DNA from: a virus
Length of the DNA stretch: 64,000 nt
Strand: one strand, 5' to 3'
Virus record (IMG/VR): IMGVR_UViG_3300045988_067909
A program made the position numbers and the translations under genes. The notes below the pieces were generated by a model that ran no database searches, was not told the DNA's origin, and saw nothing but the letters and a program-made list of their open reading frames with translations. Positions 4,562-37,922 of this stretch are shown in pieces (position 1 is the first letter of the stretch; every line of letters begins with the position of its first letter).

Positions 4562-4577
4562 GAGGTGATAGTTAATT

Positions 4578-5780: not shown

Positions 5781-5796
5781 GAGGTGATAGTTAATT

Positions 5797-18500: not shown

Positions 18501-20282
18501 ATGAAAAAAGTTATTTTGACAGCAATGGTTATTGGCTCTTTGAGCCTAAATGTAATGGCAATTGATAACGCTACTGGGTCTGGTAGTGGTATCGCTTATG
18601 GTACAGGAAGTAGTGCTAATGGTACACATGATGTATCCATTGGTGTATCTTCTAAAGCCGAAAACTACACAAACCAAAATGGTTCGATAGCTATTGGTCA
18701 TAAAGCTCATACTGAACTTATGGCTGGTGGTGTTGAAGCAGCATTTGGTTTTGGTCAAACTACATATAGTGGGAGCGAATTCTCATCTGCACGTGTCCCA
18801 GCTGACCCATCTAAAGTTATTGGTGCAGTAGCTATTGGTAACAATACATATGCTCGTACAGGTTCTACTATGGTTGGTTCTCATAACTACCATGGTGAAA
18901 TTGGTGATGTTACCATTAATACAGATAAAGATGAAACAGGCACTAGAAGCCAAGCATTAAATGTATATGCAACTAATATTGGTGCAAATAGCTTCAGTAA
19001 TGGTGCTTTAACTACATCTACTGGTGCTTATAATATTATTTCTAGTTCCTATACTGGTGGTAGATTCTCTACACCATCTCAAAATCTAGGTGCTACTATT
19101 ACAGGTGCTATGAATAGTATTGAATCTAAAACTGCACAAGGTATTGGCTCTGGTTGGTTTGCTGATAGAACTGGTGTTGGTGTAGCTAATACTATTAATG
19201 GTCTAGCAAATAGAACTGCCAATACTAATGGCACTATTGTATTTGGTGCTGGTAATGAAGTCACAAATTCTATTGCAGAATTGACTGGTATTCCAAAAAA
19301 TACTGGTAACTCTGCTAAAGAGTTTGCTGGTAAACTAAGAGATGGTATCTCTAAGTCTAATGGTGGTGGTGCTACTATGGTAATTGGTGGTGGTAATAAA
19401 GCCGATTACACATTACGCACTTCTATGATTGGTGTAAATAACACAGTTACTGGTACGTCTGGAAATGAAAGCACAGACAACTTTGTAGTTGGTGTAAACA
19501 ATAATGCATCTAATGTATCTAATGCAATTATTGTTGGTAATAACCATAATGTAGCTAATGCAACACATACAGTTATTATTGGTTCTAGTGATAATGCTAC
19601 AAGCACAGTAGTAAATGATGCTGTAGCTATTGGTCATAATACAGAAGTATCTTACGTTGGTGGTGTAGCTCTTGGTGCACAATCTAAAGCTACAGTAAAT
19701 TCTGGTGTAGCTGGATATGATGTAGTAACTAAGACACAATCTACAAACAATAGCCCTGTATGGACTTCTACAGCTTCTGCTGTATCTGTTGGTGATGTAG
19801 ATAATAATGTGACTCGTCAAATCACATCTGTATCCGCAGGTACTAATGATACTGATGCAGTTAACGTTGCACAACTTAAACAATTAGACAGCAAAATCGA
19901 TACTGGTGTGTCTGATGTATTAAATCGTGCAAATAACTATACTGACACTCAAGTATCCAAAGTTGGTGCTAGAGCAGCAGCATTATCTGGATTACATTAT
20001 GTAGACTATAACCCTAACGATAAATGGAGCTTTGCTGCATCTTTAGGTGGTTATAAAGGTTCTACTGCTGGAGCTATTGGAGTCGCTTATCAACCAAATG
20101 AAAGCACTCTTATCCATGCAGGTGTAACTTTAACAGATAGTCCAATGTACAATATTGGTGCATCTTTCAAAGTAGGTAAACAAGATCCTACATTGAAAAC
20201 TAGCCGTATTGAAATGGCACAACAAATCAAAGATTTACAAGAGCAACTTGCTGAAATCAAAGCAGCTCTTGCAAATAAATAA
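18501..20282 (+). CDS. YadA-like trimeric autotransporter adhesin (593 aa) with signal peptide, head repeats, neck (DAVNVAQLK) and C-terminal beta-barrel anchor plus a short coiled-coil tail
   Basis: Signal peptide MKKVILTAMVIGSLSLNVMA. Repeated SIGxxS/AIGxN head motifs. NVAQLK neck at nt 19852-19878. Anchor VGARAAALSGLHY...GASFKVG at about nt 19962-20178. Confidence 0.8.
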   Translation: MKKVILTAMVIGSLSLNVMAIDNATGSGSGIAYGTGSSANGTHDVSIGVSSKAENYTNQNGSIAIGHKAHTELMAGGVEAAFGFGQTTYSGSEFSSARVPADPSKVIGAVAIGNNTYARTGSTMVGSHNYHGEIGDVTINTDKDETGTRSQALNVYATNIGANSFSNGALTTSTGAYNIISSSYTGGRFSTPSQNLGATITGAMNSIESKTAQGIGSGWFADRTGVGVANTINGLANRTANTNGTIVFGAGNEVTNSIAELTGIPKNTGNSAKEFAGKLRDGISKSNGGGATMVIGGGNKADYTLRTSMIGVNNTVTGTSGNESTDNFVVGVNNNASNVSNAIIVGNNHNVANATHTVIIGSSDNATSTVVNDAVAIGHNTEVSYVGGVALGAQSKATVNSGVAGYDVVTKTQSTNNSPVWTSTASAVSVGDVDNNVTRQITSVSAGTNDTDAVNVAQLKQLDSKIDTGVSDVLNRANNYTDTQVSKVGARAAALSGLHYVDYNPNDKWSFAASLGGYKGSTAGAIGVAYQPNESTLIHAGVTLTDSPMYNIGASFKVGKQDPTLKTSRIEMAQQIKDLQEQLAEIKAALANK

Positions 20283-20294
20283 TTCTACCATGTA

Positions 20295-20333
20295 TATGGC
20301 ATAGTATTGACGGTACTATGCCATACTTTTTTA
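20295..20333 (+). terminator. intrinsic terminator (tatggcatagtattgacggtactatgccata + TTTTTT)
   Basis: 11-bp stem followed by a T-run. Confidence 0.65.
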
Positions 20334-20359
20334 GCATATAGTTAAAAGGAGACATTCAA

Positions 20360-23091: not shown

Positions 23092-23140
23092 AAGAAGTTC
23101 TACAAGGGTCAATGACCCTTGTAGACTATTTTCTTTTTTC
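23092..23140 (+). terminator. intrinsic terminator aagaagttctacaagggtcaatgacccttgtagactattttctttttt
   Basis: 10-bp stem plus T-run. An identical ~48-bp copy sits at 23609-23662. Confidence 0.7.
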
Positions 23141-23188
23141 TATGATACTGAGGATATATCTAGTATTTCGTAAAACTGTTTTTTTTTT

Positions 23189-23204: not shown

Positions 23205-23252
23205 GGTAATATCATGGTTATATTTAGTTATTGAAGAAAAGGAGAATATATC

Positions 23253-23608: not shown

Positions 23609-23662
23609 AAGAAGTTCTACAAGGGTCAATGACCCTTGTAGACTATTTTCTTTTTTTTTTGT
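23609..23662 (+). terminator. second identical copy of the ctacaagggtcaatgacccttgtag terminator
   Basis: Exact repeat of 23092-23140, with a longer T-run. Confidence 0.7.
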
Positions 23663-24340: not shown

Positions 24341-24347
24341 AGGTAAT

Positions 24348-24476
24348 GATGATAATTATCATCGATTGAAGAATATAGTTATATTCAAGGACCTCTAGGA
24401 GTTAGAGTGATAGATACAATAGTATCTTGATCTTTAACTTCTAGGGGTCCTTGAACACTATATCTTTTTTCTTTTG
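24348..24476 (+). ncRNA. candidate ~130-nt small RNA: motif promoter, then 16-bp palindrome, then a long hairpin (arms ttcaaggacctctag 24384-24398 and ctaggggtccttgaa 24441-24455), then a T-run; no ORF
   Basis: Promoter-like motif and terminator bracket a non-coding stretch. Could equally be a 5' attenuator of the downstream gene. Confidence 0.3.
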
Positions 24477-24580
24477 CGAATTTCTATGATACTGGCTAAG
24501 GTTTAGGAGGTGATATATGAAAGAAAACCAAATAGTATTTTAGAATTCTACTTTTTATTAATCCAAGGAGGACAGTCGTT

Positions 24581-25348
24581 ATGAAAATCATAAACGATGT
24601 CAAGAGGGATCTAAGATTCCTCATCGAATCAAAATTAACTAAGCAATTAGCTATTCAAACGATTTCTGAATTATATAAAAATGAACGTTTGAATCCAGAA
24701 TCGATTGGTCTGTGGTATGACCAAGTACGTAGAGATATTCCAAGCTATGTACAACGAACCACAACTAATGAACCACAAGTATGTGATATTAAGAAATCCA
24801 TAGTTGGTGGTAAAACAATCAAAGGGTCTATTATCACCCACGACAGAAAGAAAAGCAGTCGTAAAGATAATACACCATACTACAAACGAGGAGGTGAGAG
24901 ACGATGGCATAATATCGTAGTTGGAGGCACTATGATTTCAGCCAGAAGAAACCTAAAAGCAGCAAAAGCTTCCATTTCAGCTACATATAGATTTATGGAG
25001 TTGATAGATAGCGATGAGCCTAATCCAGAAAAGGCTATCATCGACATTGTCGATAAAGAATACCGTGAAGGATATTCATTGGACAATAAAAATGATATAC
25101 TCACTAGATTCGCCAGTGATTATATCGATAATAAGGCAATATTTCTTATGATGCCAAAGATTGGTAAGGAAATTGCCGAAGGGCGAGACATCGAAATGGT
25201 TGCACGAAAATATAAGACCACTAAGGATGCCATCATAGATATGGTTAAGAAACATAGCTTTGTATTCTTTACGTTCTATGATATGGGTGCTTTGACTTTT
25301 ATAGAAGGGATGGAAGAGTATGGAAAAACCACTTATCATTCCAAATAG
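24581..25348 (+). CDS. hypothetical basic protein (255 aa)
   Basis: RBS CAAGGAGGA. Preceded by a mini-ORF (MKENQIVF, 24493-24519) that has its own AGGAGGT RBS. Confidence 0.7.
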   Translation: MKIINDVKRDLRFLIESKLTKQLAIQTISELYKNERLNPESIGLWYDQVRRDIPSYVQRTTTNEPQVCDIKKSIVGGKTIKGSIITHDRKKSSRKDNTPYYKRGGERRWHNIVVGGTMISARRNLKAAKASISATYRFMELIDSDEPNPEKAIIDIVDKEYREGYSLDNKNDILTRFASDYIDNKAIFLMMPKIGKEIAEGRDIEMVARKYKTTKDAIIDMVKKHSFVFFTFYDMGALTFIEGMEEYGKTTYHSK

Positions 25349-26740: not shown

Positions 26741-28285
26741 ATGGAAGAAAGAAAATTAAACATGAATATCCGTCTTCATCATTCACCAAATGAATCATGG
26801 AAGACAACTATGGAGATTCTAGATTTAGATAAGCTTCGTATCGAGGGTATATCTAAAGGTAGAGACTTTATCATTTCTGAACCACAAACTGTAAAGAAAG
26901 ATTTAAAGTCAGATTCTTCCATCTTCTCTAGTAAATATGGAGCATCTATATCTGATGATAAAGATGCTTATAAGGATAGATATCGTTGTGAATGTGGTCA
27001 CTATACTGGTAGACTATATAATAACGAAATCTGTCCTTACTGTAATACTAAGGTCAAATATGTAGACGATGACCTTAATATTACTGGTTGGGTTGTATTA
27101 CAAGAGCATGTAATCATCCACCCTAACTTATTTAAGAACCTAGAGAAATTAATCACTCCAGCCGTTCTTAAAGACATCTTGACTCTAGATGTAGAGCTAG
27201 ATGAAAATGGATTCGAAGTATCTAAAGTAAATGAGAAAGTCAGAAAAGAATCTGGTGAGTATCATGGTATTGGTATGATAGAATTCTGTAAAAGAATAGA
27301 TGAGATTATGGAATACTTTGCTCGTAAGAACAAGTCCAAGAAAGATAAGATAGCTAACTATGAGTTGCTACTAAAATATAGGGACAGATTACTTACACAT
27401 TCTATTCCAGTATATTCTCTATTCTTACGTATGGTTAATCTCCAAGGGGATAAGTTCTCCTTTAAAGGAGCTAATGCTATTTACAATAATATCGCTAAAT
27501 ATGCAGCATTAGTAAATGGCAACCGTACAGTAATCCAAGCAAGAGATCAATTTAAAGATGAGGCTCTCTTGAATATTCAATATCTATATGCTGGGTCTAA
27601 TGATTCTTTGTATGATTCTGTCATTGAAGAATTAGCACATAAGAAAGGTGCCATTCAATCTGCATTAGCTGGACGGTATAACTTTACTGGTCGTAATGTA
27701 ATCATTCCAGATGCTACATTACGTATTGATGAGATTAAGCTTCCATATAACTCATTACTAGTTCTATTGGAACAAACTATCATCAATATCCTAGCTAGAT
27801 CTTATAATATCACTTATAGCGATGCTCATAAGAAGTGGTGGAAAGCCCAAACTTATGTAGATCCAGTTATATTAGATATCATCAAAGGTATCATTAAGTC
27901 TTACCCTCGAGGTATTCCATTCATCATCAATCGTAACCCAACTATCAACTATGGTTCTGTGTTACAAATGTATTGTATTGATGTATTGGTAGATTCATTC
28001 ACTATGAGAGTTCCATTACAGGTATTACCTGGTATGAATGCGGACTTTGACGGTGACTGCTTGAATATCACTTATCTTATTAATAAGGAATTCGTAGCTA
28101 GATGTGAAGAGTCTTTGAATCCTAGAAATACTATGATGATTTCTAAGAACAATGGGCGATTCAATTCATTCATGAACTACTTCAAGGATACTATTGTAAA
28201 CTTGAATAGTTTCTGTAATCTAGGTTTCGATACTTATACTAAAGATGAGATAGATGATATCAAAGCTCTAATGGAGGGTAGATAA
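26741..28285 (+). CDS. multisubunit RNA polymerase beta-prime subunit, N-terminal fragment (through the catalytic NADFDGD loop); split phage-encoded RNAP
   Basis: RBS TAGGAGGAG. Beta-prime zinc ribbon RYRCECGHYTGRLYNNEICPYCNTKV (nt 26987-27043; E. coli [25 protein letters not shown]). GMNADFDGDCLN (nt 28037-28057), then NPRNTMMISKNNG matching E. coli MMSTNNILSPANG. The ORF stops about 50 aa after the active site, as in split jumbo-phage RNAPs. Confidence 0.8.
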   Translation: MEERKLNMNIRLHHSPNESWKTTMEILDLDKLRIEGISKGRDFIISEPQTVKKDLKSDSSIFSSKYGASISDDKDAYKDRYRCECGHYTGRLYNNEICPYCNTKVKYVDDDLNITGWVVLQEHVIIHPNLFKNLEKLITPAVLKDILTLDVELDENGFEVSKVNEKVRKESGEYHGIGMIEFCKRIDEIMEYFARKNKSKKDKIANYELLLKYRDRLLTHSIPVYSLFLRMVNLQGDKFSFKGANAIYNNIAKYAALVNGNRTVIQARDQFKDEALLNIQYLYAGSNDSLYDSVIEELAHKKGAIQSALAGRYNFTGRNVIIPDATLRIDEIKLPYNSLLVLLEQTIINILARSYNITYSDAHKKWWKAQTYVDPVILDIIKGIIKSYPRGIPFIINRNPTINYGSVLQMYCIDVLVDSFTMRVPLQVLPGMNADFDGDCLNITYLINKEFVARCEESLNPRNTMMISKNNGRFNSFMNYFKDTIVNLNSFCNLGFDTYTKDEIDDIKALMEGR

Positions 28286-28635: not shown

Positions 28636-30222
28636 ATGGCTAAGAAACCTTTTTATGAGTACCGTATAGTCACTCCAGTAGGCCCAGATAATGATGGTAA
28701 TATACCTCTGATTGAGCTTGATATAAAACGTGATGATGACCCTGGTATTCATACTATATCTGAAATAAAGAAAGATAGAGAGCAGTTACCTAGGTCTGAT
28801 AAAGATACACCATTGACTACTGATGATGTACAGTTAAAAGTAGAGCCTGGTAAAGACTTTGAAGTGGTTAATAGAGATGTATTAGCTAAGATATATGCAG
28901 ACCCTGATAAGTTTAAACCAATTGATATAGTAGAACGTATGGAGAAGAAGATATATCGTAATCTCTGTGTTCCATCTCATGTACACGCATACTCAGTATG
29001 TGTAGAGTTCTTTAAGAACTATATCTTATCACAGTTTAGTGCATCATTCTTTAAGACAGTCTACATCGAAGGGAAACATCTCTTTGATGATTGGGCTAAA
29101 CTTAATATCAATGATATGATTAAACGTGGTAAACCTGCTATTGCTATTATTCCTCAGTTAGATACAGACTTTAACCGTGATGGTATAGATGCTAATAACT
29201 ATGACTTAACGTATTATGCCAGAACGTTCAACTATAGAGATACATTCTTTAAAGATAGAGAGCGTGATAAGTATATTGCTATAGCATTTGAGCAAATGCT
29301 TATGAACTTCCAAGTACGTATCAAAGTCAATACTAAAGCTAAGCAAATAGATATTATGAAATATCTTAAGATGGCTCTTAAAGTTGGTGCCACATCTGGT
29401 AAGTATCTTGATATGGATATCCATGTACCACAAGAAATGCTACTAGCATTAGCTCAAGATGTAGGATTTGATGTAGATCTAGAGAAGAAAGAAATCAAAG
29501 ACCCATTCAAATTCCTAGTATACTTAAATAGTAAGTCCGAAGTCCCATTCATCTATAAGCTTAGAGCTATTAATGGTAGAAATGAGTTCTTTATTAGAGC
29601 TAAAGCTATGTATACTCATATAGCTACACCAGATATCAATATAGATGATGGTGAGCGCCAAGGACAAGTAAGTTCTAATTACTTTATTGAGTTTACTACA
29701 GAGATTAGAATGCCAGCGCCTAAAGTATATTGCTACTTTACTGCTAAGCACACTAATCTTATTGAGTTTACTGATAACGCTGGTAATATTAAGTCGTATG
29801 TAGCTAACTTTGCGAATGTACCAACATTGAATGAACGTGGTTGGGAACAATTCTTTACATTAGACTATGAAGATAAGAAAGATAAAGTGCTAGAGATTAG
29901 TATTAGCGATATCTTTGATGGTGACCCATATATAAATAAATTAATAAAGTACTGTAAGTCTAAGTTCATTAGTCCATCTGTGTTTATTGACTTTAAGATT
30001 GTCAATAATAATAAGATAGTTGATATAGATGTCAACTGGACTGATATGGTTATCAATACAATCAAACCTGTAGACTTTGAGTATTCAGAGATAGTCGTTT
30101 ATACTGATAAAGCATATATGAATTCTCAATTACTAGCTATGGAACAAGATACAGGCTACCGTGTAGTCTATAATAAAGATCCAGAATCTGAGAACTATCC
30201 TATACATGATAATAGAAATTAA
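28636..30222 (+). CDS. hypothetical protein (528 aa); possibly a highly diverged beta-prime C-terminal fragment
   Basis: RBS TAAGGAGGT. Segment MALKVGATSGKYLDM at aa ~247-260 weakly resembles the beta-prime bridge helix (TALKTANSGYLTRRL) at roughly the expected offset. Otherwise unrecognisable. Confidence 0.7.
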   Translation: MAKKPFYEYRIVTPVGPDNDGNIPLIELDIKRDDDPGIHTISEIKKDREQLPRSDKDTPLTTDDVQLKVEPGKDFEVVNRDVLAKIYADPDKFKPIDIVERMEKKIYRNLCVPSHVHAYSVCVEFFKNYILSQFSASFFKTVYIEGKHLFDDWAKLNINDMIKRGKPAIAIIPQLDTDFNRDGIDANNYDLTYYARTFNYRDTFFKDRERDKYIAIAFEQMLMNFQVRIKVNTKAKQIDIMKYLKMALKVGATSGKYLDMDIHVPQEMLLALAQDVGFDVDLEKKEIKDPFKFLVYLNSKSEVPFIYKLRAINGRNEFFIRAKAMYTHIATPDINIDDGERQGQVSSNYFIEFTTEIRMPAPKVYCYFTAKHTNLIEFTDNAGNIKSYVANFANVPTLNERGWEQFFTLDYEDKKDKVLEISISDIFDGDPYINKLIKYCKSKFISPSVFIDFKIVNNNKIVDIDVNWTDMVINTIKPVDFEYSEIVVYTDKAYMNSQLLAMEQDTGYRVVYNKDPESENYPIHDNRN

Positions 30223-30230
30223 AGAGTATA

Positions 30231-30265
30231 CCTGGATGGGCAAATCGCTCATCCAGGGTATTTTT
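30231..30265 (+). terminator. intrinsic terminator cctggatgggcaaatcgctcatccagg + TTTTTT
   Basis: 10-bp stem plus T-run. Confidence 0.7.
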
Positions 30266-30266
30266 T

Positions 30267-30282
30267 AATTGTATATTATAAC
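30267..30282 (+). promoter_or_regulatory. promoter-like motif copy AATTGTATATTATAAC
   Basis: Directly after the terminator T-run. 97 nt upstream of ATG 30379. Confidence 0.5.
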
Positions 30283-30378
30283 TATAAGTACATCCGTACA
30301 TAAAGTTTGTAAAAACTCGTTATACGGATATATATGGTTATTATTTATATTAAATTGTGTTAGAATAGGAGATTAAAA

Positions 30379-31251
30379 ATGCAAGAATCAAACAAATTAA
30401 CTAAAAGTGATGTCATTAGATATCGGGAATTGAAAATAAAATACTTAGATACGAGGGCTCCAAAAGAAGCATATGCTATTCATCTATCTGGTATGACAAC
30501 TAATCAAAAAATTAAGCTATATAGTTATTGGACTAGATATATGAATATGGTTAATACTGTATCTGATAAACCAACGTTCTTAGAAAGAGAACAGGATATG
30601 AAAACTTGTGGTATACAAGAATTAACCACTATGCTATTTACAAGAAAAGCTATCTCTTTAAGACGGTCATCTGGTAATCCATTTCTATTATTACTAAGAC
30701 CAAATATAAAGAAAGAATATGCTGATTGGTTAATGAATATAAGAGAAGAATATGGCGTTCCTAAATCATTATTAAGACCTGTTCGTGGTAGACGTAAATC
30801 CCCATATAGATTATATATCTATCCTGATTATAGTAAGTACTCTAATATATTTGATGTGGCTAAGTCCATTAAAATCTTATACGAATTAGCTAAAGCATAT
30901 GAGAATGGTGAGATATCTAGTGGACAAGACCTAAGACATAAACTATGTGAATTATGTAAAGACATGGGTCATGTACCATCATTCCAAACAGGTACAATAG
31001 TTAAGCTGTATGAGTCTATTAAAGACTATTATAAGTTATATCTCGTCTATGACCAGCTAGGAGACGATTTACTTCTAGGTGAATCTTTTGCTTACTTAAA
31101 CAAAAGATATAAACTAACTAAGATGGGTATTTATAATATAAAGAGTTTATATGCAGCTATAACAATACACGCATCTATAGTTGCATTATACCTTAGAACC
31201 AAAGGTCACTTGATATCTAGAGTATTCAATACCTACTATACACCATTCTAG
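30379..31251 (+). CDS. hypothetical basic protein (290 aa)
   Basis: RBS AATAGGAGA. Confidence 0.7.
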   Translation: MQESNKLTKSDVIRYRELKIKYLDTRAPKEAYAIHLSGMTTNQKIKLYSYWTRYMNMVNTVSDKPTFLEREQDMKTCGIQELTTMLFTRKAISLRRSSGNPFLLLLRPNIKKEYADWLMNIREEYGVPKSLLRPVRGRRKSPYRLYIYPDYSKYSNIFDVAKSIKILYELAKAYENGEISSGQDLRHKLCELCKDMGHVPSFQTGTIVKLYESIKDYYKLYLVYDQLGDDLLLGESFAYLNKRYKLTKMGIYNIKSLYAAITIHASIVALYLRTKGHLISRVFNTYYTPF

Positions 31252-31261
31252 ACAAAAGAAA

Positions 31262-31305
31262 TCCCAGTATAGTCAATGACTATACTGGGTATTATTTTTT
31301 TTTGT
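31262..31305 (+). terminator. intrinsic terminator; second exact copy of cccagtatagtcaatgactatactggg + T-run
   Basis: Identical to the hairpin at 15942-15968. Confidence 0.7.
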
Positions 31306-31321
31306 AAAAGTTCATTATTAT

Positions 31322-31336
31322 AGTTGCATACTATAA
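31322..31336 (+). promoter_or_regulatory. promoter-like motif copy AGTTGCATACTATAA
   Basis: Followed by the structured leader. Confidence 0.5.
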
Positions 31337-31337
31337 A

Positions 31338-31434
31338 CGTGTATGGTAGATACAGCTAGTCTCAAGTAGCTGTATCTAAATATAACCATACACTTGTAGG
31401 AGTATATCCTACTTGCCGAAAGGAGGTGACTCCT
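31338..31434 (+). promoter_or_regulatory. structured 5' leader, copy A: long imperfect hairpin (gtgtatggtagatacagct / agctgtatctaaatataaccatacac), second hairpin (gtagga...tcctac), and an SD-sequestering hairpin AGGAGgtgaCTCCT immediately before the ATG
   Basis: Duplicated with loop-only differences at 31713-31809. Confidence 0.45.
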
Positions 31435-31611
31435 ATGACTGGTGCTCAAATGAGATATTACAATCTCACAGCTGGTCATGAAGCTAATCTTTATTTAAAA
31501 ATAAGATTAGCTCTAGACATTGTACGCAACTACGAGAATGGTAATTCTGAAAACTATTCTCGTAGTGAGTACGATGAATGCTTAAAATTCATTCAAAATC
31601 TAGAACCTTAG
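31435..31611 (+). CDS. small hypothetical protein (58 aa)
   Basis: The track start 31426 is a GTG. ATG 31435 lies 6 nt after AGGAGGTG. Confidence 0.55.
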   Translation: MTGAQMRYYNLTAGHEANLYLKIRLALDIVRNYENGNSENYSRSEYDECLKFIQNLEP

Positions 31612-31632
31612 ATTTGTGGATGAATGAATAAT

Positions 31633-31678
31633 ATACATGGGTAGGTGTTCACTCATCTACCCATGTATTATTTTTTTT
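31633..31678 (+). terminator. intrinsic terminator atacatgggtag...ctacccatgtat + T-run
   Basis: 12-bp stem, T9. Confidence 0.7.
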
Positions 31679-31696
31679 ATAAGTAAACTGTTTTAC

Positions 31697-31712
31697 GATT
31701 GTATACTATAAT
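31697..31712 (+). promoter_or_regulatory. promoter-like motif copy GATTGTATACTATAAT
   Basis: Followed by leader copy B. Confidence 0.5.
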
Positions 31713-31809
31713 TGTGTATGGTAGATACAGCTGCCTACAATAGCTGTATCTAAATATAACCATACACTTGTAGGATATTAATCCTACTTGCCGAAAGGAG
31801 GTGACTCCT
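31713..31809 (+). promoter_or_regulatory. structured 5' leader, copy B (same stems as copy A, different loop sequences, identical SD-sequestering hairpin)
   Basis: Arms conserved. Loop gcctacaat vs agtctcaagt, and tatta vs gtata. Confidence 0.45.
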
Positions 31810-32016
31810 ATGGCACCAAACGGTTGCATAGGTAACTATGCAAATCAACTAGCAGAAAGATCTTCCAATCTAGATTGGCAGATTCGTACTGCTATGAGCC
31901 TAGTGGCTGATCGTTATGCTGACATCAACAGCGTAACGCATCACGAAGCCATAATGGCTTACCGATTCCTTGTATCACAAGGATTCAAATTACCTATAAC
32001 TGAAAACCACTTATAG
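31810..32016 (+). CDS. small hypothetical protein (68 aa)
   Basis: The track start 31801 is a GTG. ATG 31810 lies after AGGAGGTG. Confidence 0.55.
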   Translation: MAPNGCIGNYANQLAERSSNLDWQIRTAMSLVADRYADINSVTHHEAIMAYRFLVSQGFKLPITENHL

Positions 32017-32030
32017 GTAATAAGAGAGAA

Positions 32031-32090
32031 TACGGTGGTGTAGGTGTATGCCACCGTATTACTCCATTGTTATACCTGTTTTATTTTTTA
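32031..32090. terminator. probable bidirectional terminator between convergent genes (atacggtggtgtaggtgtatgccaccgtat hairpin, T-rich flanks)
   Basis: 9-bp stem. Sits between convergent 3' ends. Confidence 0.4.
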
Positions 32091-35000
32091 TACAGTTTCG
32101 AATATAACAGGGTCAACGAAACCGACATAAGCTTTAGGATTCTTAGCTTGCATAAATTCAGCTTTACGTAAGAAGTCTAATGTAACATTAAACCCTTTAA
32201 AGATATTACGCATACTAGTATTACCTGTAGCTGTTTTTACTATATTAGCTACACGTTCTACTTCTATACCTGTAGGGTTTTGTGCTTGAACTATATTAGC
32301 AGAAGATGATAAGTATTCATTAGACCAAGGCCCCATAACCTGATATCTACTATTAGTAAAGTATACAGCAATCTTTAAGTTATAGCCAGGGTTCTTTTGG
32401 AACTCTTGTGCTAAGACTTTATTGATACGTGCTAGGTATGTATTAACAGGGCGTAGTGAAGCACGTTTAATAGATACATTAGTACCATTACGGTTATATT
32501 GCACTCTAGAATCATTATTAGCTTCAGCATAGTTATTGACTATGAACGCTACAGATTCATTTTCAGCTAGTTTACTATAGTATCTTGTAATGAAGCTAGT
32601 AATATAGTTGACATTGTTATTCAAGTCATCAATATTATCTAGATAGATTACATATTGTTTATGGTTAGTATCAGACTTTCTATTTACAAATAGATTCATA
32701 GGAGATTGTCCAATACTAATACTAGTCGGAACAGTAACACTATCATCTAAGAATTGATTATAGAAGTGGAGAATGCCCTTAAAGTGTGGTATAAGTGTAA
32801 CTTGATTACAATCTGGATATGTATATTGACCCTCACGTAGAGAATGTGCTGTATCATTAGGATTTAAGAATTTAGTTAACCCATTACGGATACCATCTCT
32901 GTAGAATCTAGCATACATAATATCAGAACTATGCATAAAGAAATCATAGACTACACCCTTCTTATAAAGCTTAGTACTAAACTTAGATTTCCAATCATCA
33001 GAGCCTGGTTCATTAGTATAGTCTAAGTTAGGCTTAAACATTTCAGGAACTGCCACATATGTATTTCTACCAATACCTGATAAGCATTCATCACCATTAC
33101 CATTAAACAATAACGGATTATTATAATGGAAGTATGTATGTAAGAACGTACCAACACCAATCTCTTGGATATTCTTATACCCTTTATCGTCCGTATAACG
33201 CATAGATAGGTTATCCATTACTGGTTCAAACGTATTGATTTGGTTTACACCATAGTTTCTGGCTACACGTATACGATTATACTCATTAGCGTTATTACCT
33301 AATGCTACATAATTGCTAGAACTATTTAATGCTAAAGACTCTTCAGCTAATAAACAGTTTGAGATATTAGCATTATATACGTAATCACCAGTATGATACA
33401 TAAATTTACCAGGACCATTCTTAGGTTCTGCTATATAACTAGCATCAGTATCCCCAGATTGTTTGAATAATACATCTGGTAATACTGCATTACTTGTAAT
33501 ATTATTATTTGTACCAGGAACTGTATTACTACCAATGATATAGTTTATAGATGTAGAGTTATTAGGGCTAATAAATCCTTTGGTGTAACTACCATCAGAT
33601 GAGAATGTGATATTATAGTTAAGTCTTTGAATATCTGTAATTGTATTTATTAATAATGCACCATAGATAGGATGTCTAATAGCTGGATCATCAGGTATAA
33701 ATTTACGTATTTCTATATATAGCGTTTGGTAATTCATTGTAGATAATAACCACCCAGAGATATAGTCATATGTAGTTTTATCTATTAATGGAATCCAGAA
33801 TTTCTCATTATTAGCACCAGTATATTCTATATAGCATATACGATATCTATAGTCACTGCCAGGTCTGGAATTATTGGTTGTTGGAATCTTATAGAACCCA
33901 ACAGGGTTACCTGTAACTTTAAATATACAATCTGTCGTTATAGGGTCAGTTATAGTTTTATTTATTGAAGAATCAGGTATATTATATATATTAGCTGCTG
34001 ATGCGGCATTTAATTCACGACCACAAATGAATGTGATATTATCTTCATTCCTAAATAAGTCATTCATAGTACCGGCTGGTGCAGTTGTCCATAATGCTAA
34101 ACCACCGGCAACTTCAGTGAAGTATATATCCTGAGGATATGTACCATTATTTATGCCAGTTCGTACTCCTAGACATTCTCTATATATACTTTCTACAGTG
34201 TCACGACTGTTTGTCTGGGCAATACCACTATCATCTAGATCTGTATAATCTAATAAGAATAATCCAACATCCTTAGATCCTGTAGCCATATAGTTAGCCC
34301 AAACAGATTTAGTTATATTCGCTAATTCTTGTGGACTTACATTTAATACATTACGCAAATAGTCACTATCTACGATATAAACAGCCATACTTCTATTATC
34401 TATATTGATATCACGTAACTTAGCTATAGTATCTTTGAAGTGTTCCATATAAGATTTACCTGCAGGAGCATCAGATCGTCTTAGTATGTACTTAAATGCT
34501 GGTGCATTAAATCTGACGGATACATCAGAGCTTATATTTGTAGGTCTAGGTTCTACTGAGTTTGTATATTTTACTGCATTTACGTAGTCATCTATAAGTA
34601 AGATATAGCCCCATAGCATATTATCGATCAATGTTTGCCGACGATACATGTAGATACGACCATAGGTATTATTGATAGCATTAAACAAATTATATTGACC
34701 AATACCATATAAATCGTATGGTACAGCATTACAGTTACTAGCAGATTCAGTTACAGTACATTTAATAACTGGAGAATCTTGGAACAAATTCAATGCTACA
34801 CGGTTATGTTCTGTTTTACCAACTACCATTTCACAATGAGATGCATCTAATAATGGTGTAGTGAAATCGGAGAAGTATCTTGATTTCAAGTTTACTATTT
34901 TATTAGTAGTATCTATATCTGTTACATTTATAGGATTAGCTTTATAGAAGAACTCATTATTATCTCTTGTAGGATTAGCGTTAGGTATTCGCTTACCAGC

Positions 35001-37922
35001 TATGATTACATTACCCTTGAGATATCTATATCTAGGTCTGTATTCGTTACCATTACAGCCGGCTAAGAATACATTATCTGTAGATATACGTGTACGACTA
35101 TATTCACTAATAGTTGTATCAACTTCAAAAGCATCTATAGTTATATTAGGATCACTATGATATACTTTATAAGTTACAGGTAACTTACCATCAGTATTAC
35201 CAGTATTAGCTATAAACTCTTTAACGTTACTAGTCTTTAAATACTCTCTATTAGAGTTGACTACTGGTATAATTCTACCCTTGTATTTGATGGCAACAAT
35301 AGACATACCAATATTAGGTCTATTAGATAATATTTGGCTAGTAAAGTATAACTTATATTCACTATTAGCTTTTAATTCATCTATAGTACCACCGACTTTA
35401 GTAACGTCATACATATCAAATAGATTGGACTCGTTATTAAATGTAGTATTAAGACTGACTTTCATCTCATCGTTTTTAAGAACGTAGTCATAGAATATAC
35501 TTTGTGGCGTAATGCGTTCAAATGGTTTTGTCATAGGATATAACTCTGATTCCCATGTAGTATTACCACTATCAGTATTGATAGCTTCAGTTTCACCATT
35601 ATCGCCGACTATGATATTACCATGTACAGAATAGTTTCCTATCTCAAGAATAAGTTTAACTGTACTTAATGCTGGTACAGATATATTACCATCACCAGTA
35701 ATACTAATCTTAACTGGCTCATTAGATGCACCAGTTACCACAGATTCGCTTCTTACTAATAGATATGGTTTACTAAATTTCTTTAGTTCATCACCAGGTA
35801 CAAATATCTTCCATTCAGTGCCACCAGTACTTGCTACATTTACGTTAGTATTAATTACCACACCACTTTGTGGGATAATACGATACATAATTACACCATC
35901 AGGGGTAATTGTTTCATTATTTTTTGTAACCGTATATGTAGTATCTTTGACTTTGATTGTAGCATCAAAGGTATTATAATTATTAGCACTATTATTGAAA
36001 ACAGCAATTACAGTCTTACCAACTAAACCATTTAGTTTTGTAGAACTAGTAATTTCGGTCCAATCTTGTACATTATCAGCAATATCATTAGCTAAATAGT
36101 ATTTTACACCCTCTATAGTAGGGCCATTGAATCTTACTGTATATAATGTATCAGCATCTATAATTTTAGATTCTGGTAAGTCATATAAGAAATAATGATT
36201 AGGTCTAATATCTAAACAGTCTTGAACTAAACCAAAGTCATTTAGATTTTTGATATTAGGGAATAGAATGTCGCTAGTATTAGATCTAAGTCTATCCAAT
36301 ACTACAGAAGATTCATTAGCTATAGATGCTGGTAGATATTTGATTAATAGAGACTCTTCTTTGGTTATAGATTCTCTATTATAGATAACGTATTCATCAG
36401 CATCATCTAAAGCTGTTTTGATTGTCTCATATGGGACTTTATTATCATTAATAAGTCTAATGATAGAACGGTATTTGTATTTCTTTATATCAGTTGCTAG
36501 CTTATTAACTATAACAGCACACTCTTCAGGTGTTTTATTACGAGCCAATACATTGATAGTCTTATAATTAGAATAGTCTATCTCTTGTTGAGTTATATTC
36601 TTTCCGTTATAAGTCATTACTGGTTTAAACTTATATGGTGTACCATTTACAATATTATCCATAATCTTATAGATAGACATAAAGTGTGGTAATAACCATT
36701 CAGTGTATCTATTGGCTTTAGAGTTATTTGATTTTGTTTTACGTACATATGCTAAGTCTATATCGTCCATATGTGAACGGTATATTACCCCATATGGGAT
36801 ATCATTGATGTATTTTAATGGGTCTATAATAGACTCACTATTTACATTGATACTAGTAGTGAAATCATATAAGCTAGGCAGACAAGTTAAAGTCAAATCA
36901 CCAGATACAGTTCTAAATAAACCATCATTAGGTTTATTTGGTATGCATAGCTCAAAGTCCTTATTGGCATTTAGCTTATTGGTATCATCATTAAAGACCA
37001 ATAGCTTACTAATCTTACTATATGTAGAGTTCTTACTATCTGTCCAGTTCTTACCAAATTTATCAACAAATTTCAATTTACCATTAGCTAGATTGAAATT
37101 ACCATGCATATCTGGTGTATTAACATATGATGCTGGTATAGCATATAGTCTATTCTTAACAAATACAGATTTAGTTACATAGTATTTGTATTGGTCTTCT
37201 AAACCATTATCAAATGTCGGATAGTCTCTATATCTAGCATGAGATGTTGTACCAGATGGTACACTAATCTCAATACCATCAAGATATTTATTTCCACGGC
37301 TAAAGTAAACCTTGTATGTACCACTAATAGTAGCATAGTTTACATCATTGCCTGTAGTATTCTTATTGGATATTGCAAATAAAGTCTCTACTGTAATGTA
37401 GTTTTTATCTGTATCTAATAACGGAATGACTCTATCATTATACTTAACCATAGCAAAAGTATTTACGTTCAGTAAACGACCATCTATATCTGTTTTAGCT
37501 ATACGGAAAGTATACTGTGTATTATTAGCCAATGTATTAGCTTGTGTATTCTTTGTTAACCGTTGCTGTTTCTTTATCTCAAATTGAGTGAATAAACAAG
37601 GGTACCAGTTATTGGTACCCCGTTCAACTATGGTTAACGTTTTCTTTGTGGCATCTACAACGTCTTCTTTAACAAATTCACCAGCATAGATTTCTAATCC
37701 TTTAGAAGTCCATTCACCAACGTATTTGTTACCGACAGTAAACTGATTGTAGTCTACAGGTAATACAGCACCATTTCTAAACTTAGTTAGAAGCGGTACA
37801 GTCTTACCATTTATTCTAATAGTATCTCCACCATCAACCCCTTGTTTGAATATAAGATTGATATGGTCTCCAAGTTTAAACTTAGGGTACTTTTTCTTAA
37901 ATACTATTACAAATTTTCCCAT
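32088..37922 (-). CDS. giant virion structural protein (1944 aa), tail/baseplate/fibre class
   Basis: RBS AAAGGA upstream of the ATG on the minus strand. Size, composition and position in the structural block. Confidence 0.75.
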   Translation of the reverse strand: MGKFVIVFKKKYPKFKLGDHINLIFKQGVDGGDTIRINGKTVPLLTKFRNGAVLPVDYNQFTVGNKYVGEWTSKGLEIYAGEFVKEDVVDATKKTLTIVERGTNNWYPCLFTQFEIKKQQRLTKNTQANTLANNTQYTFRIAKTDIDGRLLNVNTFAMVKYNDRVIPLLDTDKNYITVETLFAISNKNTTGNDVNYATISGTYKVYFSRGNKYLDGIEISVPSGTTSHARYRDYPTFDNGLEDQYKYYVTKSVFVKNRLYAIPASYVNTPDMHGNFNLANGKLKFVDKFGKNWTDSKNSTYSKISKLLVFNDDTNKLNANKDFELCIPNKPNDGLFRTVSGDLTLTCLPSLYDFTTSINVNSESIIDPLKYINDIPYGVIYRSHMDDIDLAYVRKTKSNNSKANRYTEWLLPHFMSIYKIMDNIVNGTPYKFKPVMTYNGKNITQQEIDYSNYKTINVLARNKTPEECAVIVNKLATDIKKYKYRSIIRLINDNKVPYETIKTALDDADEYVIYNRESITKEESLLIKYLPASIANESSVVLDRLRSNTSDILFPNIKNLNDFGLVQDCLDIRPNHYFLYDLPESKIIDADTLYTVRFNGPTIEGVKYYLANDIADNVQDWTEITSSTKLNGLVGKTVIAVFNNSANNYNTFDATIKVKDTTYTVTKNNETITPDGVIMYRIIPQSGVVINTNVNVASTGGTEWKIFVPGDELKKFSKPYLLVRSESVVTGASNEPVKISITGDGNISVPALSTVKLILEIGNYSVHGNIIVGDNGETEAINTDSGNTTWESELYPMTKPFERITPQSIFYDYVLKNDEMKVSLNTTFNNESNLFDMYDVTKVGGTIDELKANSEYKLYFTSQILSNRPNIGMSIVAIKYKGRIIPVVNSNREYLKTSNVKEFIANTGNTDGKLPVTYKVYHSDPNITIDAFEVDTTISEYSRTRISTDNVFLAGCNGNEYRPRYRYLKGNVIIAGKRIPNANPTRDNNEFFYKANPINVTDIDTTNKIVNLKSRYFSDFTTPLLDASHCEMVVGKTEHNRVALNLFQDSPVIKCTVTESASNCNAVPYDLYGIGQYNLFNAINNTYGRIYMYRRQTLIDNMLWGYILLIDDYVNAVKYTNSVEPRPTNISSDVSVRFNAPAFKYILRRSDAPAGKSYMEHFKDTIAKLRDINIDNRSMAVYIVDSDYLRNVLNVSPQELANITKSVWANYMATGSKDVGLFLLDYTDLDDSGIAQTNSRDTVESIYRECLGVRTGINNGTYPQDIYFTEVAGGLALWTTAPAGTMNDLFRNEDNITFICGRELNAASAANIYNIPDSSINKTITDPITTDCIFKVTGNPVGFYKIPTTNNSRPGSDYRYRICYIEYTGANNEKFWIPLIDKTTYDYISGWLLSTMNYQTLYIEIRKFIPDDPAIRHPIYGALLINTITDIQRLNYNITFSSDGSYTKGFISPNNSTSINYIIGSNTVPGTNNNITSNAVLPDVLFKQSGDTDASYIAEPKNGPGKFMYHTGDYVYNANISNCLLAEESLALNSSSNYVALGNNANEYNRIRVARNYGVNQINTFEPVMDNLSMRYTDDKGYKNIQEIGVGTFLHTYFHYNNPLLFNGNGDECLSGIGRNTYVAVPEMFKPNLDYTNEPGSDDWKSKFSTKLYKKGVVYDFFMHSSDIMYARFYRDGIRNGLTKFLNPNDTAHSLREGQYTYPDCNQVTLIPHFKGILHFYNQFLDDSVTVPTSISIGQSPMNLFVNRKSDTNHKQYVIYLDNIDDLNNNVNYITSFITRYYSKLAENESVAFIVNNYAEANNDSRVQYNRNGTNVSIKRASLRPVNTYLARINKVLAQEFQKNPGYNLKIAVYFTNSRYQVMGPWSNEYLSSSANIVQAQNPTGIEVERVANIVKTATGNTSMRNIFKGFNVTLDFLRKAEFMQAKNPKAYVGFVDPVIFETV

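What the first reader, a model, noticed from the sequence alone, without database searches (positions are those of the whole stretch)
31322..31812. Duplicated structured 5' leader with conserved stems, swapped loops and an SD-sequestering hairpin in front of two unrelated small genes
Two ~115-bp elements (31322-31437 and 31697-31812) each comprise a promoter motif, a long imperfect hairpin, a short hairpin, and AGGAGgtgaCTCCT-ATG in which the Shine-Dalgarno pairs with the sequence directly before the start codon. Stems are identical between copies while both loop sequences differ. This is the signature of selection on RNA structure. The downstream ORFs (58 and 68 aa) are not similar to each other. 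The element looks like a portable riboregulator or translational thermosensor/RNA-binding-protein target.
Basis: seen in the sequence. Interest (0 to 1): 0.55.

Follow-up and report, generated by a model that had tools for sequence, protein, structure and literature searches.

The report
Repeated structured mRNA leader, jumbo phage
The two repeats are copies of a promoter-plus-folded-mRNA-leader cassette that an uncultivated ~260-kb phage from human samples puts in front of about a dozen tiny genes; the cassette is real and conserved in structure, and it resembles repeated regulatory cassettes already described in other phages.

Summary
The two window copies are identical from the first stem base to the ATG, except in two hairpin loops. 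I found 97 distinct copies in one clade of ~125-270-kb uncultivated phages that encode a multisubunit RNA polymerase, with 7-12 copies per genome. Each copy has an AT-rich phage-type promoter and a ~20-bp bulged hairpin (HP1) with a nearly invariant stem and a saturated loop. A short second hairpin (HP2) follows, then a third hairpin (P3) that encloses the Shine-Dalgarno sequence and most of the AUG. Compensatory changes support HP1's inner stem and HP2 (10 pairs, 0/500 shuffles). P3 is supported by energy: opening the ribosome site costs 10.1 versus 6.2 kcal/mol in 199 control genes, and native flank combinations fold better than swapped ones. The leader precedes four small-protein families. 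The two window ORFs are distant paralogs, not unrelated. Leaders are mosaic, loops invert, and whole cassettes come and go at syntenic loci. Most likely this is a self-contained early-gene expression cassette with a 5' protective or recognition hairpin and a masked ribosome site. A thermosensor is unlikely. The closest analogues are PeSL cassettes of T4-type phages and SAS/ESAS repeats of cluster K mycobacteriophages. No transcript data exist.

The parts
31263..31303 (+). Terminator hairpin plus T-run ending the upstream 290-aa gene. It is the 5' boundary of cassette 1.
   Evidence: Called by the terminator scan. The same hairpin type recurs upstream of many copies in related phages and at window 15942-15977 (family D16).
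31304..31337 (+). Promoter of cassette 1: upstream block GTAAAAGTTCAT (31304-31315) and AT-rich block TTGCATACTATAAA (31324-31337).
   Evidence: The motif recurs nine times 50-250 nt upstream of + strand ORFs in the window and in 152 distinct contexts in related loci. It is not called as a sigma-70 promoter. It resembles the extended AT-rich virion-RNAP early promoters of AR9 and phiKZ-type phages (PMC5312081). The promoter class is inferred.
31339..31393 (+). HP1 of copy 1. Outer stem GTGTATGG(T)/(A)CCATACAC, inner stem AGATACAGCT/AGCTGTATCT, loop 31358-31367, 7-nt bulge AAATATA 31378-31384.
   Evidence: Fold. RNAalifold recovers it. Five inner-stem pairs show compensatory changes across 97 copies; the outer stem never covaries.
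31396..31412 (+). HP2 of copy 1: GTAGGA / loop GTATA / TCCTAC.
   Evidence: Four of six pairs show compensatory changes (GTAGGA/TCCTAC, GTAGAC/GTCTAC, ATGGGA/TCCCAT). It is replaced by a different small hairpin (GGTG..CACC or GGT..ACC) in 15 of 97 copies.
31415..31443 (+). P3, the ribosome-site hairpin of copy 1. GCCG pairs with UGGU of codons 2-3, and AGGAG (31421-31425) pairs with CTCCT (31430-31434). GUGA is the loop. Extended SD AAAGGAGGTGA at 31419-31429; ATG at 31435-31437.
   Evidence: Local MFE -9.0 kcal/mol. The SD and AUG are occluded more than in 199 control genes. Native flanks fold better than swapped flanks.
31435..31611 (+). ORF1, 58 aa, small-protein family A (MTGAQMRY...).
   Evidence: 17 distinct full-length relatives lie behind the same leader. 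No Pfam or PHROG hit.
31633..31680 (+). Terminator hairpin plus T-run between the two cassettes.
   Evidence: Terminator scan: 15-bp stem. The hairpin type is conserved upstream of other copies.
31681..31712 (+). Promoter of cassette 2: AAGTAAACTG (31681-31690) and TTGTATACTATAAT (31699-31712).
   Evidence: Exact match to the motif consensus. Same basis as for copy 1.
31714..31768 (+). HP1 of copy 2: identical stems and bulge, loop GCCTACAAT (31733-31741).
31770..31787 (+). HP2 of copy 2: GTAGGA / loop TATTAA / TCCTAC.
31789..31815 (+). P3 of copy 2. UGCCG pairs with UGGCA (AUG plus codon 2), and AGGAG (31796-31800) pairs with CTCCT (31805-31809). SD at 31794-31804; ATG at 31810-31812.
   Evidence: Local MFE -13.5 kcal/mol.
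31810..32016 (+). ORF2, 68 aa, small-protein family B (M..GC[VI].NY.N.LAERS...).
   Evidence: 124 relatives, all unannotated and all on contigs of the same phage clade. Only 5 clusters among 1.84 billion representatives. Predicted two-helix hairpin, pLDDT 74.
32030..32059 (.). Hairpin ATACGGTGG..CCACCGTAT between ORF2 and the convergent 1944-aa gene (32088-37922, minus strand). Probably a shared terminator.
   Evidence: Seen in the sequence. Not called by the simple terminator scan.

Best explanation
Each element is the regulatory half of a self-contained ~370-bp gene cassette. The cassette reads: terminator of the previous unit, AT-rich phage-type promoter, ~95-nt structured 5' UTR, 58-70-aa ORF, terminator. 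Related phages carry 7-12 such cassettes per ~260-kb genome.

Proposed mechanism. The phage's own RNA polymerase, probably the virion enzyme and so early in infection, starts a few bases after the TATAAT-like block. The mRNA therefore begins with HP1, a ~20-bp bulged hairpin. HP1 shields the 5' end from 5'-end-dependent decay and may also be a recognition handle. HP2 is a structural spacer. The ribosome site sits in a third hairpin (P3). In P3 the SD core pairs with a CUCCU-like spacer and the bases before the SD pair with the AUG and codon 2, while the 3' part of an unusually long SD (GGUGA) is left in the loop. A 30S subunit can nucleate on that loop and displace the hairpin, because the SD:anti-SD duplex (-17 to -22 kcal/mol) is stronger than P3 (-9 to -13.5 kcal/mol). 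The leader thus sets mRNA stability and initiation rate independently of the ORF behind it. Its ~130 bp of near-identity also gives recombination a place to shuffle, add and delete ORF units.

Shown here: the anatomy, copy number, sequence and structure conservation, occlusion of the ribosome site, mosaicism and cassette indels. Inferred: the promoter class, the transcription start, and the effects on stability and translation.
For: 97 distinct copies were found in one phage clade, with 12, 10 and at least 7 copies at 5-7 dispersed loci in three ~260-kb contigs.

Structure: 95.9% of cells are paired, against 21-46% when partners are slid. Ten pairs change on both sides, and 0/500 shuffles reach that. 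RNAalifold recovers HP1. HP2 is replaced by an unrelated small hairpin in 15/97 copies.

The leader is nearly invariant while the HP1 loop and the coding sequence are at saturation. A genome whose ORF is only 68% identical has the same stems.

Ribosome site: the opening energy is 10.1 versus 6.2 kcal/mol in 199 control genes of the same phages (p = 2e-27). The spacer holds CC in 95/97 leaders versus 22/199 controls. At least 2 of 3 AUG bases are paired in 83/97 leaders and at least 3 of 5 SD-core bases in 94/97. Native upstream and downstream flanks fold better than swapped ones (0/200 each). SD:anti-SD versus hairpin energies are.

Promoter: the recurrent motif lies upstream of ORFs. It is not sigma-70-like. 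It resembles AR9-type virion-RNAP early promoters, and the AR9 paper also reports unexplained conserved 5' UTR motifs (PMC5312081). The window encodes a split RNAP beta' piece.

Shuffling: the same HP1 loop occurs with up to 5 HP2/spacer classes and 3 ORF families. There is a one-cassette indel between collinear flanks.

Precedent: a 5' stem-loop plus strong ribosome binding stabilises B. subtilis aprE and hbs mRNAs, as does the STAB-SD element (reference list of PMC3997798).
Against: There are no transcript data, so the start site, timing and even transcription are inferred.

A plain stabiliser needs pairing, not sequence. Yet the HP1 stem and the AAATATA bulge are nearly invariant while HP2 covaries freely.

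37 other genes behind the same promoter motif have no unusual 5' hairpin (mean z = -0.14). A 5' hairpin is therefore not a general need of this phage's transcripts.

The HP1 outer stem shows no covariation, and its first bases may lie upstream of the transcription start.

HP1 mismatches are more often A.C (10 types) than G.U (4 types) on the mRNA strand. This is the opposite of what RNA-level selection predicts, although it is not significant.

The host is unknown. The only hint is that phage contigs were binned into a Solobacterium MAG. Column-wise covariation of the P3 outer helix is marginal (22-25/500).
Confidence: 0.5

Rival explanations
1. HP1 is an RNA operator. A phage (or host) RNA-binding protein recognises the invariant stem and the AAATATA bulge and co-regulates the 7-12 mRNAs per genome that carry it, controlling timing of translation, decay or localisation. 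This is compatible with the cassette picture but adds a trans-acting factor.
For: The HP1 stem sequence and bulge are nearly invariant, while HP2 changes freely with compensation and the HP1 loop is saturated. Only this subset of genes behind the shared promoter carries HP1. Rare HP1 variants keep pairing through two or three simultaneous compensations, for example AGATGCGACT/AGTCGCATCT.
Against: No candidate protein was identified. The small ORFs themselves belong to at least two unrelated superfamilies, so autoregulation by all of them is unlikely. Loops invert freely, so the loop is not read.
Confidence: 0.25
2. HP1 acts at the DNA level. It could be a cruciform or template-strand hairpin, an operator next to the promoter, or a recombination site.
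For: The consensus is a perfect Watson-Crick inverted repeat with no G.U pairs. Loops of HP1, HP2 and terminators are found in both orientations: 3 exact reverse-complement pairs, and 23 loops within one mismatch of a partner versus 5.5 expected. A.C mismatches outnumber G.U on the + strand, which would be G.T on the template strand. Cassette indels and mosaic leaders exist.
Against: Loop length varies from 6 to 11 nt, which would rotate the half-sites of a duplex operator. Loop inversion and mosaicism are expected by-products of any perfect inverted repeat and of homologous recombination. P3 uses G.U pairs on the + strand, so at least that part is RNA. The direction of substitutions shows no real bias. 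No recombinase was linked to the element.
Confidence: 0.1
3. HP1 is a double-strand-specific RNase (RNase III) processing site that trims or activates the mRNA. Conserved sites of this kind occur in T7 and SP82 early RNAs and in the lambda N leader (from my own knowledge).
For: HP1 has about 20 bp of helix interrupted by an asymmetric bulge, and its sequence is conserved.
Against: The units are monocistronic with their own promoter and terminator, so no intercistronic processing is needed. No cleavage data exist.
Confidence: 0.07
4. P3 is an RNA thermometer that releases the SD at higher temperature.
For: The SD and AUG are paired. The opening energy falls from 13.1 to 8.7 kcal/mol between 20 and 45 C, as it does for any hairpin.
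Against: P3 still costs 8.7 kcal/mol to open at 45 C. It has G-C pairs and a GNRA-type loop rather than weak or mismatched pairs. There is no ROSE or fourU hit in Rfam. Most contigs appear to come from Human Microbiome Project samples (inferred from the IMG sample numbers, from my own knowledge), so the phage seems to live at near-constant temperature.
Confidence: 0.03
5. The element has no function of its own. The identity is left over from recent duplication or gene conversion of a promoter region.
For: The copies are tandem, and cassettes are gained and lost.
Against: The coding sequences behind the leader are saturated, and families A and B share only ~30% amino-acid identity. Loops inside the leader are also saturated, so there has been ample time for change. 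Changes in stems are compensated. Conversion would homogenise loops as well.
Confidence: 0.03

Closest known systems
SAS/ESAS repeats of cluster K mycobacteriophages (PMC3203893; PMC12699233)
   Same: There are many copies per genome (11-19) immediately upstream of start codons of a subset of non-structural genes. A conserved SD-containing block has self-complementary flanks (GGGATAGGAGCCC). About half of these are preceded by an inverted repeat with a variable 4-13-bp spacer. This is the same architecture as HP1 plus P3. The function is still unproven.
   Different: There is no sequence similarity. The host phylum, GC content and phage type (temperate siphoviruses) differ. ESAS repeats are imperfect 17-mers, whereas HP1 is a nearly perfect ~20-bp bulged hairpin fixed right after a promoter. 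Here every copy also carries its own promoter and terminator.
PeSL (promoter-early stem-loop) cassettes of T4-type phages (PMC2839356; PMC4122927)
   Same: Both are conserved composite terminator-plus-early-promoter motifs, about 100 bp long and present in tens of copies, that flank small ORFan genes. Recombination between copies shuffles, deletes and inserts ORF units. Crossovers have been mapped between the -10, the SD and inside stem-loops. Here I see mosaic leaders and a one-cassette indel.
   Different: PeSL promoters are sigma-70-like, and their stem-loop is a terminator placed around or upstream of the promoter. PeSLs have no long structured 5' UTR and no ribosome-site hairpin. Mini-circles are not testable here.
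5' mRNA stabilisers of Bacillota: aprE leader (5' stem-loop plus ribosome binding), hbs, STAB-SD, SP82 polypurine stabiliser (titles in the reference list of PMC3997798)
   Same: Both combine a hairpin at the extreme 5' end with a very strong SD in the leader.
   Different: Those are single-gene leaders without sequence-invariant stems. They are not repeated cassettes, and their SD is not enclosed together with the AUG in a hairpin. A Bacillota host is only hinted at here.
Early (virion-RNAP) promoters and conserved 5' UTR motifs of AR9 and phiKZ-type jumbo phages (PMC5312081)
   Same: Both have an extended, highly conserved AT-rich promoter element, with the start ~6 nt downstream in AR9. [quoted passage not shown] The window phage has a split multisubunit RNAP whose nearest relatives are phiR1-37 and AR9-like phages, at ~29% identity.
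   Different: The consensus differs (TTGTATACTATAAT versus AAATATATATTAT). The AR9 UTR motif was not available for comparison. No transcript mapping exists here.
SD-sequestering RNA thermometers (ROSE, fourU)
   Same: The SD is paired within a 5' UTR hairpin.
   Different: The pairing is stronger and G-C rich, there is no family match, and the hairpin does not melt in the physiological range.

Membership tests
Any Rfam family (release 15) | Covariance-model match at or near the gathering score | tested here: not met
   No hit reaches gathering score in the whole window. In 30000-33000 the best permissive hits reach 30 bits against thresholds of 53-90 bits and fall on the terminators, not the leader.
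RNA thermometer (ROSE / fourU type) | SD paired by weak or mismatched pairs that melt between about 30 and 42 C | tested here: not met
   The mean opening energy of SD to AUG is 13.1, 10.1 and 8.7 kcal/mol at 20, 37 and 45 C. The stem is AGGAG/CUCCU with a GUGA loop plus an outer helix.
RNA thermometer (ROSE / fourU type) | Temperature-dependent translation | not testable with these tools
   Needs reporters or toeprinting.
PeSL-type mobile regulatory cassette | Conserved composite terminator stem-loop plus early promoter repeated in intergenic regions | tested here: met
   Terminator hairpins of a few conserved types, a T-run and a two-block promoter precede every copy. There are 7-12 copies per genome.
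PeSL-type mobile regulatory cassette | Placed in front of small ORFan genes | tested here: met
   58-70-aa ORFs of four families have no Pfam or PHROG hit and no relatives outside the clade.
PeSL-type mobile regulatory cassette | Recombination between copies produces modular gain, loss and shuffling | tested here: met
   Mosaic leaders. Three versus two units between 93%-identical collinear flanks.
PeSL-type mobile regulatory cassette | Sigma-70-like promoter of a T4-type phage; homology to PeSL sequences | tested here: not met
   The promoter is not called by the sigma-70 scan. The phage is a jumbo phage with its own multisubunit RNAP. No DNA match to any deposited phage. It is an analogue, not a member.
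SAS/ESAS of cluster K mycobacteriophages | 13-bp consensus GGGATAGGAGCCC 3-8 bp upstream of start codons | tested here: not met
   Here the block is AAAGGAGGTGA plus a YCCY spacer. The logic is the same (SD flanked by its own complement) but the sequence differs.
SAS/ESAS of cluster K mycobacteriophages | Inverted repeat with a variable spacer immediately upstream of the SD block, many copies per genome | tested here: met
   HP1 has a 6-11-nt variable loop. There are 7-12 copies per genome.
5' mRNA stabiliser (aprE-leader type) | Stable hairpin within a few nt of the 5' end of the transcript | tested here: inconclusive
   HP1 starts 2 nt after the TATAAT-like block in all copies, but the transcription start is not mapped.
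5' mRNA stabiliser (aprE-leader type) | Longer mRNA half-life that depends on the hairpin and on ribosome binding | not testable with these tools
   Needs half-life measurements.
Virion-RNAP early promoter of phiKZ/AR9-type jumbo phages | Extended, highly conserved AT-rich element upstream of early genes in a phage with virion and non-virion multisubunit RNAPs | tested here: inconclusive
   The motif is conserved and recurrent, and an RNAP beta' piece is present. Timing, the polymerase used and the start site are unknown.
Riboswitch | Conserved multi-helix junction with invariant unpaired nucleotides, and alternative expression-platform pairing | tested here: not met
   The leader is three independent hairpins in series. 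A possible HP2/P3 alternative pairing exists only in the GTAGGA class of HP2 (about 20 of 97 copies) and not in the majority GTAGAC class. No Rfam hit.

The most novel reading that the evidence does not exclude
HP1 is not only an RNA hairpin. It may be a folded-DNA site (template-strand hairpin or cruciform) used by the phage's own machinery. It could serve as a promoter-proximal signal for the virion RNA polymerase, or as the crossover site that makes each promoter-ORF unit a mobile, integron-like cassette. Four observations would fit: the perfect Watson-Crick repeat, the flip/flop loops, the excess of template-strand-compatible mismatches, and the cassette gain and loss.
Probability: 0.08. 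Interest if true: 0.75.

Novelty: new variant of a known kind. Interest (0 to 1): 0.45.

Why it matters
The element marks a set of about a dozen co-regulated, probably early, ORFan genes in a common but uncultivated jumbo phage of humans. Such genes are the natural candidates for host-takeover or anti-defence functions.

It is a clean, covariation-supported new RNA motif that is absent from Rfam. Its division of labour is unusual: one sequence-invariant hairpin, one structure-only hairpin, and one hairpin over the ribosome site.

It gives a third, independent example, after PeSL and SAS/ESAS, of phages standardising expression of accessory genes with a repeated cassette that also serves as a recombination scaffold. 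The function of SAS/ESAS is still open, so a tractable analogue would help.

The leader could also serve as a compact, ORF-independent expression part.

Tried and rejected
1. blastn of the whole locus against 50,697 deposited phage genomes found no match.

2. Pfam and PHROG scans of both small ORFs and the neighbouring 290-aa ORF found nothing.

3. The AlphaFold model of ORF2 is a two-helix hairpin with pLDDT 74. Foldseek against viral structures gave only noise, with E > 1.

4. A profile search of family B against 1.84 billion representatives returned only five clusters, all from the same clade. It therefore gave no route to diverged leaders.

5. I tested whether every transcript from this promoter starts with a hairpin. 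It does not: 37 other leaders have mean z = -0.14.

6. I tested whether the HP1 loop pairs with its own mRNA, as a pseudoknot or kissing loop. Duplex energies equal those of shuffled loops (p = 0.65).

7. The excess of A.C over G.U mismatches in HP1 looked like evidence for a minus-strand structure. It amounts to only 10 versus 4 types, and substitution directions are balanced at 10 versus 8 column types.

8. A third collection scan that fixed only the outer stem returned chance palindromic hits and no new relatives.

9. A covariance-model search of the window with filters off found only the two copies; the next hit scores 15 bits.

10. The HP1 half-site AGATACAGCT with at most 1 mismatch is over-represented (22 versus 8.1 expected). 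The extra sites are scattered and mostly fall inside long ORFs, so I did not read them as operators.

11. The metagenome scan was not used. The clade was already well sampled, and exact-pattern scans cannot reach diverged versions.
Full report
**Observation.** The window is AT-rich (33% GC). At 31322-31437 and 31697-31812 it holds two copies of one element. Aligned, the copies are identical from the first stem base to the ATG, except in the loop of a long hairpin (AGTCTCAAGT versus GCCTACAAT) and the loop of a short hairpin (GTATA versus TATTAA). Probes from the element match nowhere else in the 64 kb, and a covariance model with filters off finds only these two copies. Each leader folds into three hairpins at -45 and -48 kcal/mol, with z = -5.7 and -8.8.

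**Context.** The window belongs to a large phage.
- ORF 26741-28285 is a piece of a multisubunit RNA polymerase beta' (PHROG 2987, E = 1.5e-63; Pfam RNA_pol_Rpb1_2).
- Its nearest deposited relatives are Yersinia phage phiR1-37 and AR9-like Bacillus jumbo phages, at ~29% identity.
- No deposited phage matches the locus at the DNA level, and Rfam has no family for it.
- Each copy sits between a terminator hairpin with a T-run (31263-31303, 31633-31680) and a small ORF (58 aa at 31435-31611, 68 aa at 31810-32016).
- It is not a sigma-70-type promoter.
- It resembles the extended, highly conserved AT-rich early promoters that virion RNA polymerases of AR9 and phiKZ-type phages use, where the start lies ~6 nt downstream (PMC5312081).

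I take the motif as a probable early promoter. This is an inference.

**Further copies.**
- An exact-pattern scan of IMG/VR for the inner stem with a free loop gave 76 loci.
- A second scan fixed only the promoter and the SD, and so was blind to the hairpins. It added copies with stem variants.
- A profile search over all fetched DNA gave 97 distinct full-length leaders.
- All lie in one clade of uncultivated phage contigs of up to 267 kb. Most appear to come from Human Microbiome Project samples, judging by their IMG sample numbers (from my own knowledge).
- Three near-complete genomes carry 12, 10 and at least 7 copies at 5-7 dispersed loci, as singles, pairs or triplets on either strand.
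- In bacterial genomes the pattern occurs only in phage contigs binned into one 'uncultured Solobacterium sp.' MAG. This is a weak hint of a Bacillota host, and it fits the very long SD.

**Structure.** On the 97-sequence alignment, 95.9% of cells are paired, against 21-46% when partners are slid. Ten pairs carry changes on both sides, and 0 of 500 shuffles reach that number.
- The inner stem of HP1 has five compensated pairs, for example AGATGCGACT/AGTCGCATCT and ACGACT/AGTCGT.
- HP2 has four: GTAGGA/TCCTAC, GTAGAC/GTCTAC and ATGGGA/TCCCAT.
- In 15 copies HP2 is replaced by an unrelated small hairpin.
- The HP1 outer stem never covaries, and its first bases tolerate uncompensated change. They may therefore lie upstream of the start.
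- RNAalifold recovers HP1 independently.
- The HP1 stem and its AAATATA bulge are almost invariant in sequence, whereas the loop (69 variants in 97 copies, 6-11 nt) and the coding region are at saturation.
- A genome whose ORF is only 68% identical has the same stems.

HP1 is therefore constrained in sequence and pairing, HP2 in pairing only, and the loops hardly at all.

**The ribosome site.** The 4-6 bases before the SD pair with the AUG and codon 2: GUCAU with AUGAC, GCCAU with AUGGC, UGCUAU with AUgAGCA, and GCCG with UGGC.
- In local folds at least 2 of 3 AUG bases are paired in 83/97 leaders, and at least 3 of 5 SD-core bases in 94/97. The mean is -11.1 kcal/mol.
- Opening SD to AUG costs 10.1 kcal/mol, against 6.2 in 199 other GGAGG-bearing genes of the same phages (p = 2e-27).
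- The SD-AUG spacer contains CC in 95/97 leaders, against 22/199 controls.
- Swapping upstream 7-mers or downstream codons between leaders weakens the fold (0/200 swaps as good as native).
- The column-wise test of the outer helix is only marginal, and neither test corrects for relatedness.
- The SD is unusually long (AAAGGAGGUGA). Its duplex with a 16S 3' end is -17 to -22 kcal/mol, stronger than the hairpin (-9 to -13.5), and its 3' part sits in the loop.
- The opening energy is still 8.7 kcal/mol at 45 C, so a thermometer is unlikely.

**What follows the leader.** There are four small-protein families: B 45, C 25, A 22 and D 5 of the 97 leaders.
- The window ORFs belong to A and B, which are distant paralogs (hhalign 86%, E = 5e-6).
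- C and D are likewise related (88%).
- A/B and C/D show no similarity.
- None has a Pfam or PHROG hit or any relative outside the clade.
- ORF2 is predicted to be a two-helix hairpin and has no informative fold match.

**Evolutionary behaviour.**
- The same HP1 loop is found with up to five HP2/spacer classes and three ORF families, so leaders are recombinant mosaics.
- Loops occur in both orientations: three exact reverse-complement pairs, and 23 loops within one mismatch of a partner against 5.5 expected. HP2 and terminator loops do the same.
- At a syntenic locus one genome has three cassettes and two others have two, between 93%-identical collinear flanks.

**Interpretation.** The best-supported reading is a self-contained early-gene expression cassette (confidence 0.5). 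A phage-type promoter drives an mRNA that begins with a protective or recognised hairpin. A spacer hairpin follows, and then a ribosome site held in a hairpin that a very strong SD can open from the loop. This gives a fixed, ORF-independent output, and the conserved ~130 bp doubles as a recombination scaffold.

The combination of a 5' stem-loop and strong ribosome binding is the known recipe for stable mRNAs in Bacillota, as in aprE, hbs and STAB-SD (reference list of PMC3997798).

The main weaknesses:
- There are no transcript data.
- Other genes behind the same promoter lack a 5' hairpin.
- A simple stabiliser would not need the sequence invariance seen in HP1.

The last point keeps a trans-acting RNA-binding regulator as the main rival (0.25). 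DNA-level roles (0.10), an RNase III site (0.07), a thermometer (0.03) and no function (0.03) follow.

**Comparison with known systems.** In kind, the element matches two described classes.
- PeSL cassettes of T4-type phages are repeated terminator-plus-early-promoter motifs in front of ORFans that mediate modular shuffling (PMC2839356, PMC4122927).
- SAS/ESAS repeats of cluster K mycobacteriophages are an SD block with self-complementary flanks, often preceded by an inverted repeat with a variable spacer. There are 11-19 per genome, and the function is still unknown (PMC3203893, PMC12699233).

The element is a member of neither. The sequence, the promoter type, the phage group and the long 5' hairpin fixed next to the promoter all differ. 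I therefore rate it a new variant of a known kind, of moderate interest.

Noticed in passing
window 24342-24590: The promoter motif at 24328 is followed by an unusually long (~240 nt) leader. It contains a ~24-bp near-perfect hairpin (CAAGGACCUCUAGGAGUUAGAG...CUUUAACUUCUAGGGGUCCUUG) and then a U-run, upstream of ORF 24581 and the RNAP beta' piece. The fold is -75.9 kcal/mol, z = -6.0. It may be an attenuator or terminator in front of the polymerase genes.
   Followed up: partly
window 23205-23252; many related loci (e.g. L050, L041, L134): A second conserved short leader, GGTAATAYMATGGTTATATWTTTA, follows the same promoter motif in front of at least 15 other genes. It has no strong predicted structure.
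   Followed up: no
HP1 loops in L-loci; window 31358-31367 and 31733-31741: Hairpin loops occur in both orientations across copies, for example ACTCAGAAT/ATTCTGAGT. There are 3 exact reverse-complement pairs, and 23 loops within one mismatch of a partner versus 5.5 expected. HP2 loops (ATAA/TTAT) and terminator loops (AAT/ATT) do the same. This looks like small inversions across perfect inverted repeats.
   Followed up: yes
HP1 stems, alignment A2: Uncompensated mismatches are mostly A.C on the mRNA strand (29 cells, 10 types) rather than G.U (7 cells, 4 types). They would be G.T on the template strand. Substitution directions are balanced, so this is not significant, but it is unexplained.
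   Followed up: partly
L052 and L070 (about 820-945 in L070): A truncated cassette: promoter and HP1 are joined directly to the last ~50 nt of a family-B gene, so HP2, the SD and most of the ORF are deleted.
   Followed up: no
window 15942-15977 vs 31263-31298; 23092-23144 vs 23609-23661: Terminator hairpins come in a few conserved sequence types that are reused across the genome, at 92-96% identity (families D16 and D6).
   Followed up: no
window 4559-6636: There is a tandem duplication with a 1219-nt period (families D1, D2, D7, D18; 74-89% identity). It corresponds to neighbouring paralogous ORFs of 400 and 374 aa.
   Followed up: no
window 18501-23077: Two large ORFs (593 and 905 aa) carry internal repeats (repeat families D3, D5, D10, D13). 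They match PHROG 20057 and 10009, both of unknown function. They may be fibre- or adhesin-like proteins. Each is preceded by the promoter motif or follows a gene that is.
   Followed up: no
L145 5018-6941 (ENA ERZ28587712 scaffold_1, 269.6 kb): In a related genome, thymidylate synthase is split into two ORFs by GIY-YIG and NUMOD3 endonuclease ORFs. This suggests an intron or homing-endonuclease insertion.
   Followed up: no
window, 22 sites (e.g. 800-809, 4688-4697, 45582-45612): The HP1 half-site AGATACAGCT with at most 1 mismatch occurs 22 times versus 8.1 expected (0/100 shuffles). Apart from the four arms in HP1, the sites are scattered and mostly fall inside long ORFs.
   Followed up: no
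L148-L152 (CALISH01 contigs): Phage contigs carrying the leader are binned into an 'uncultured Solobacterium sp.' MAG. This is either a host hint or a binning artefact.
   Followed up: no
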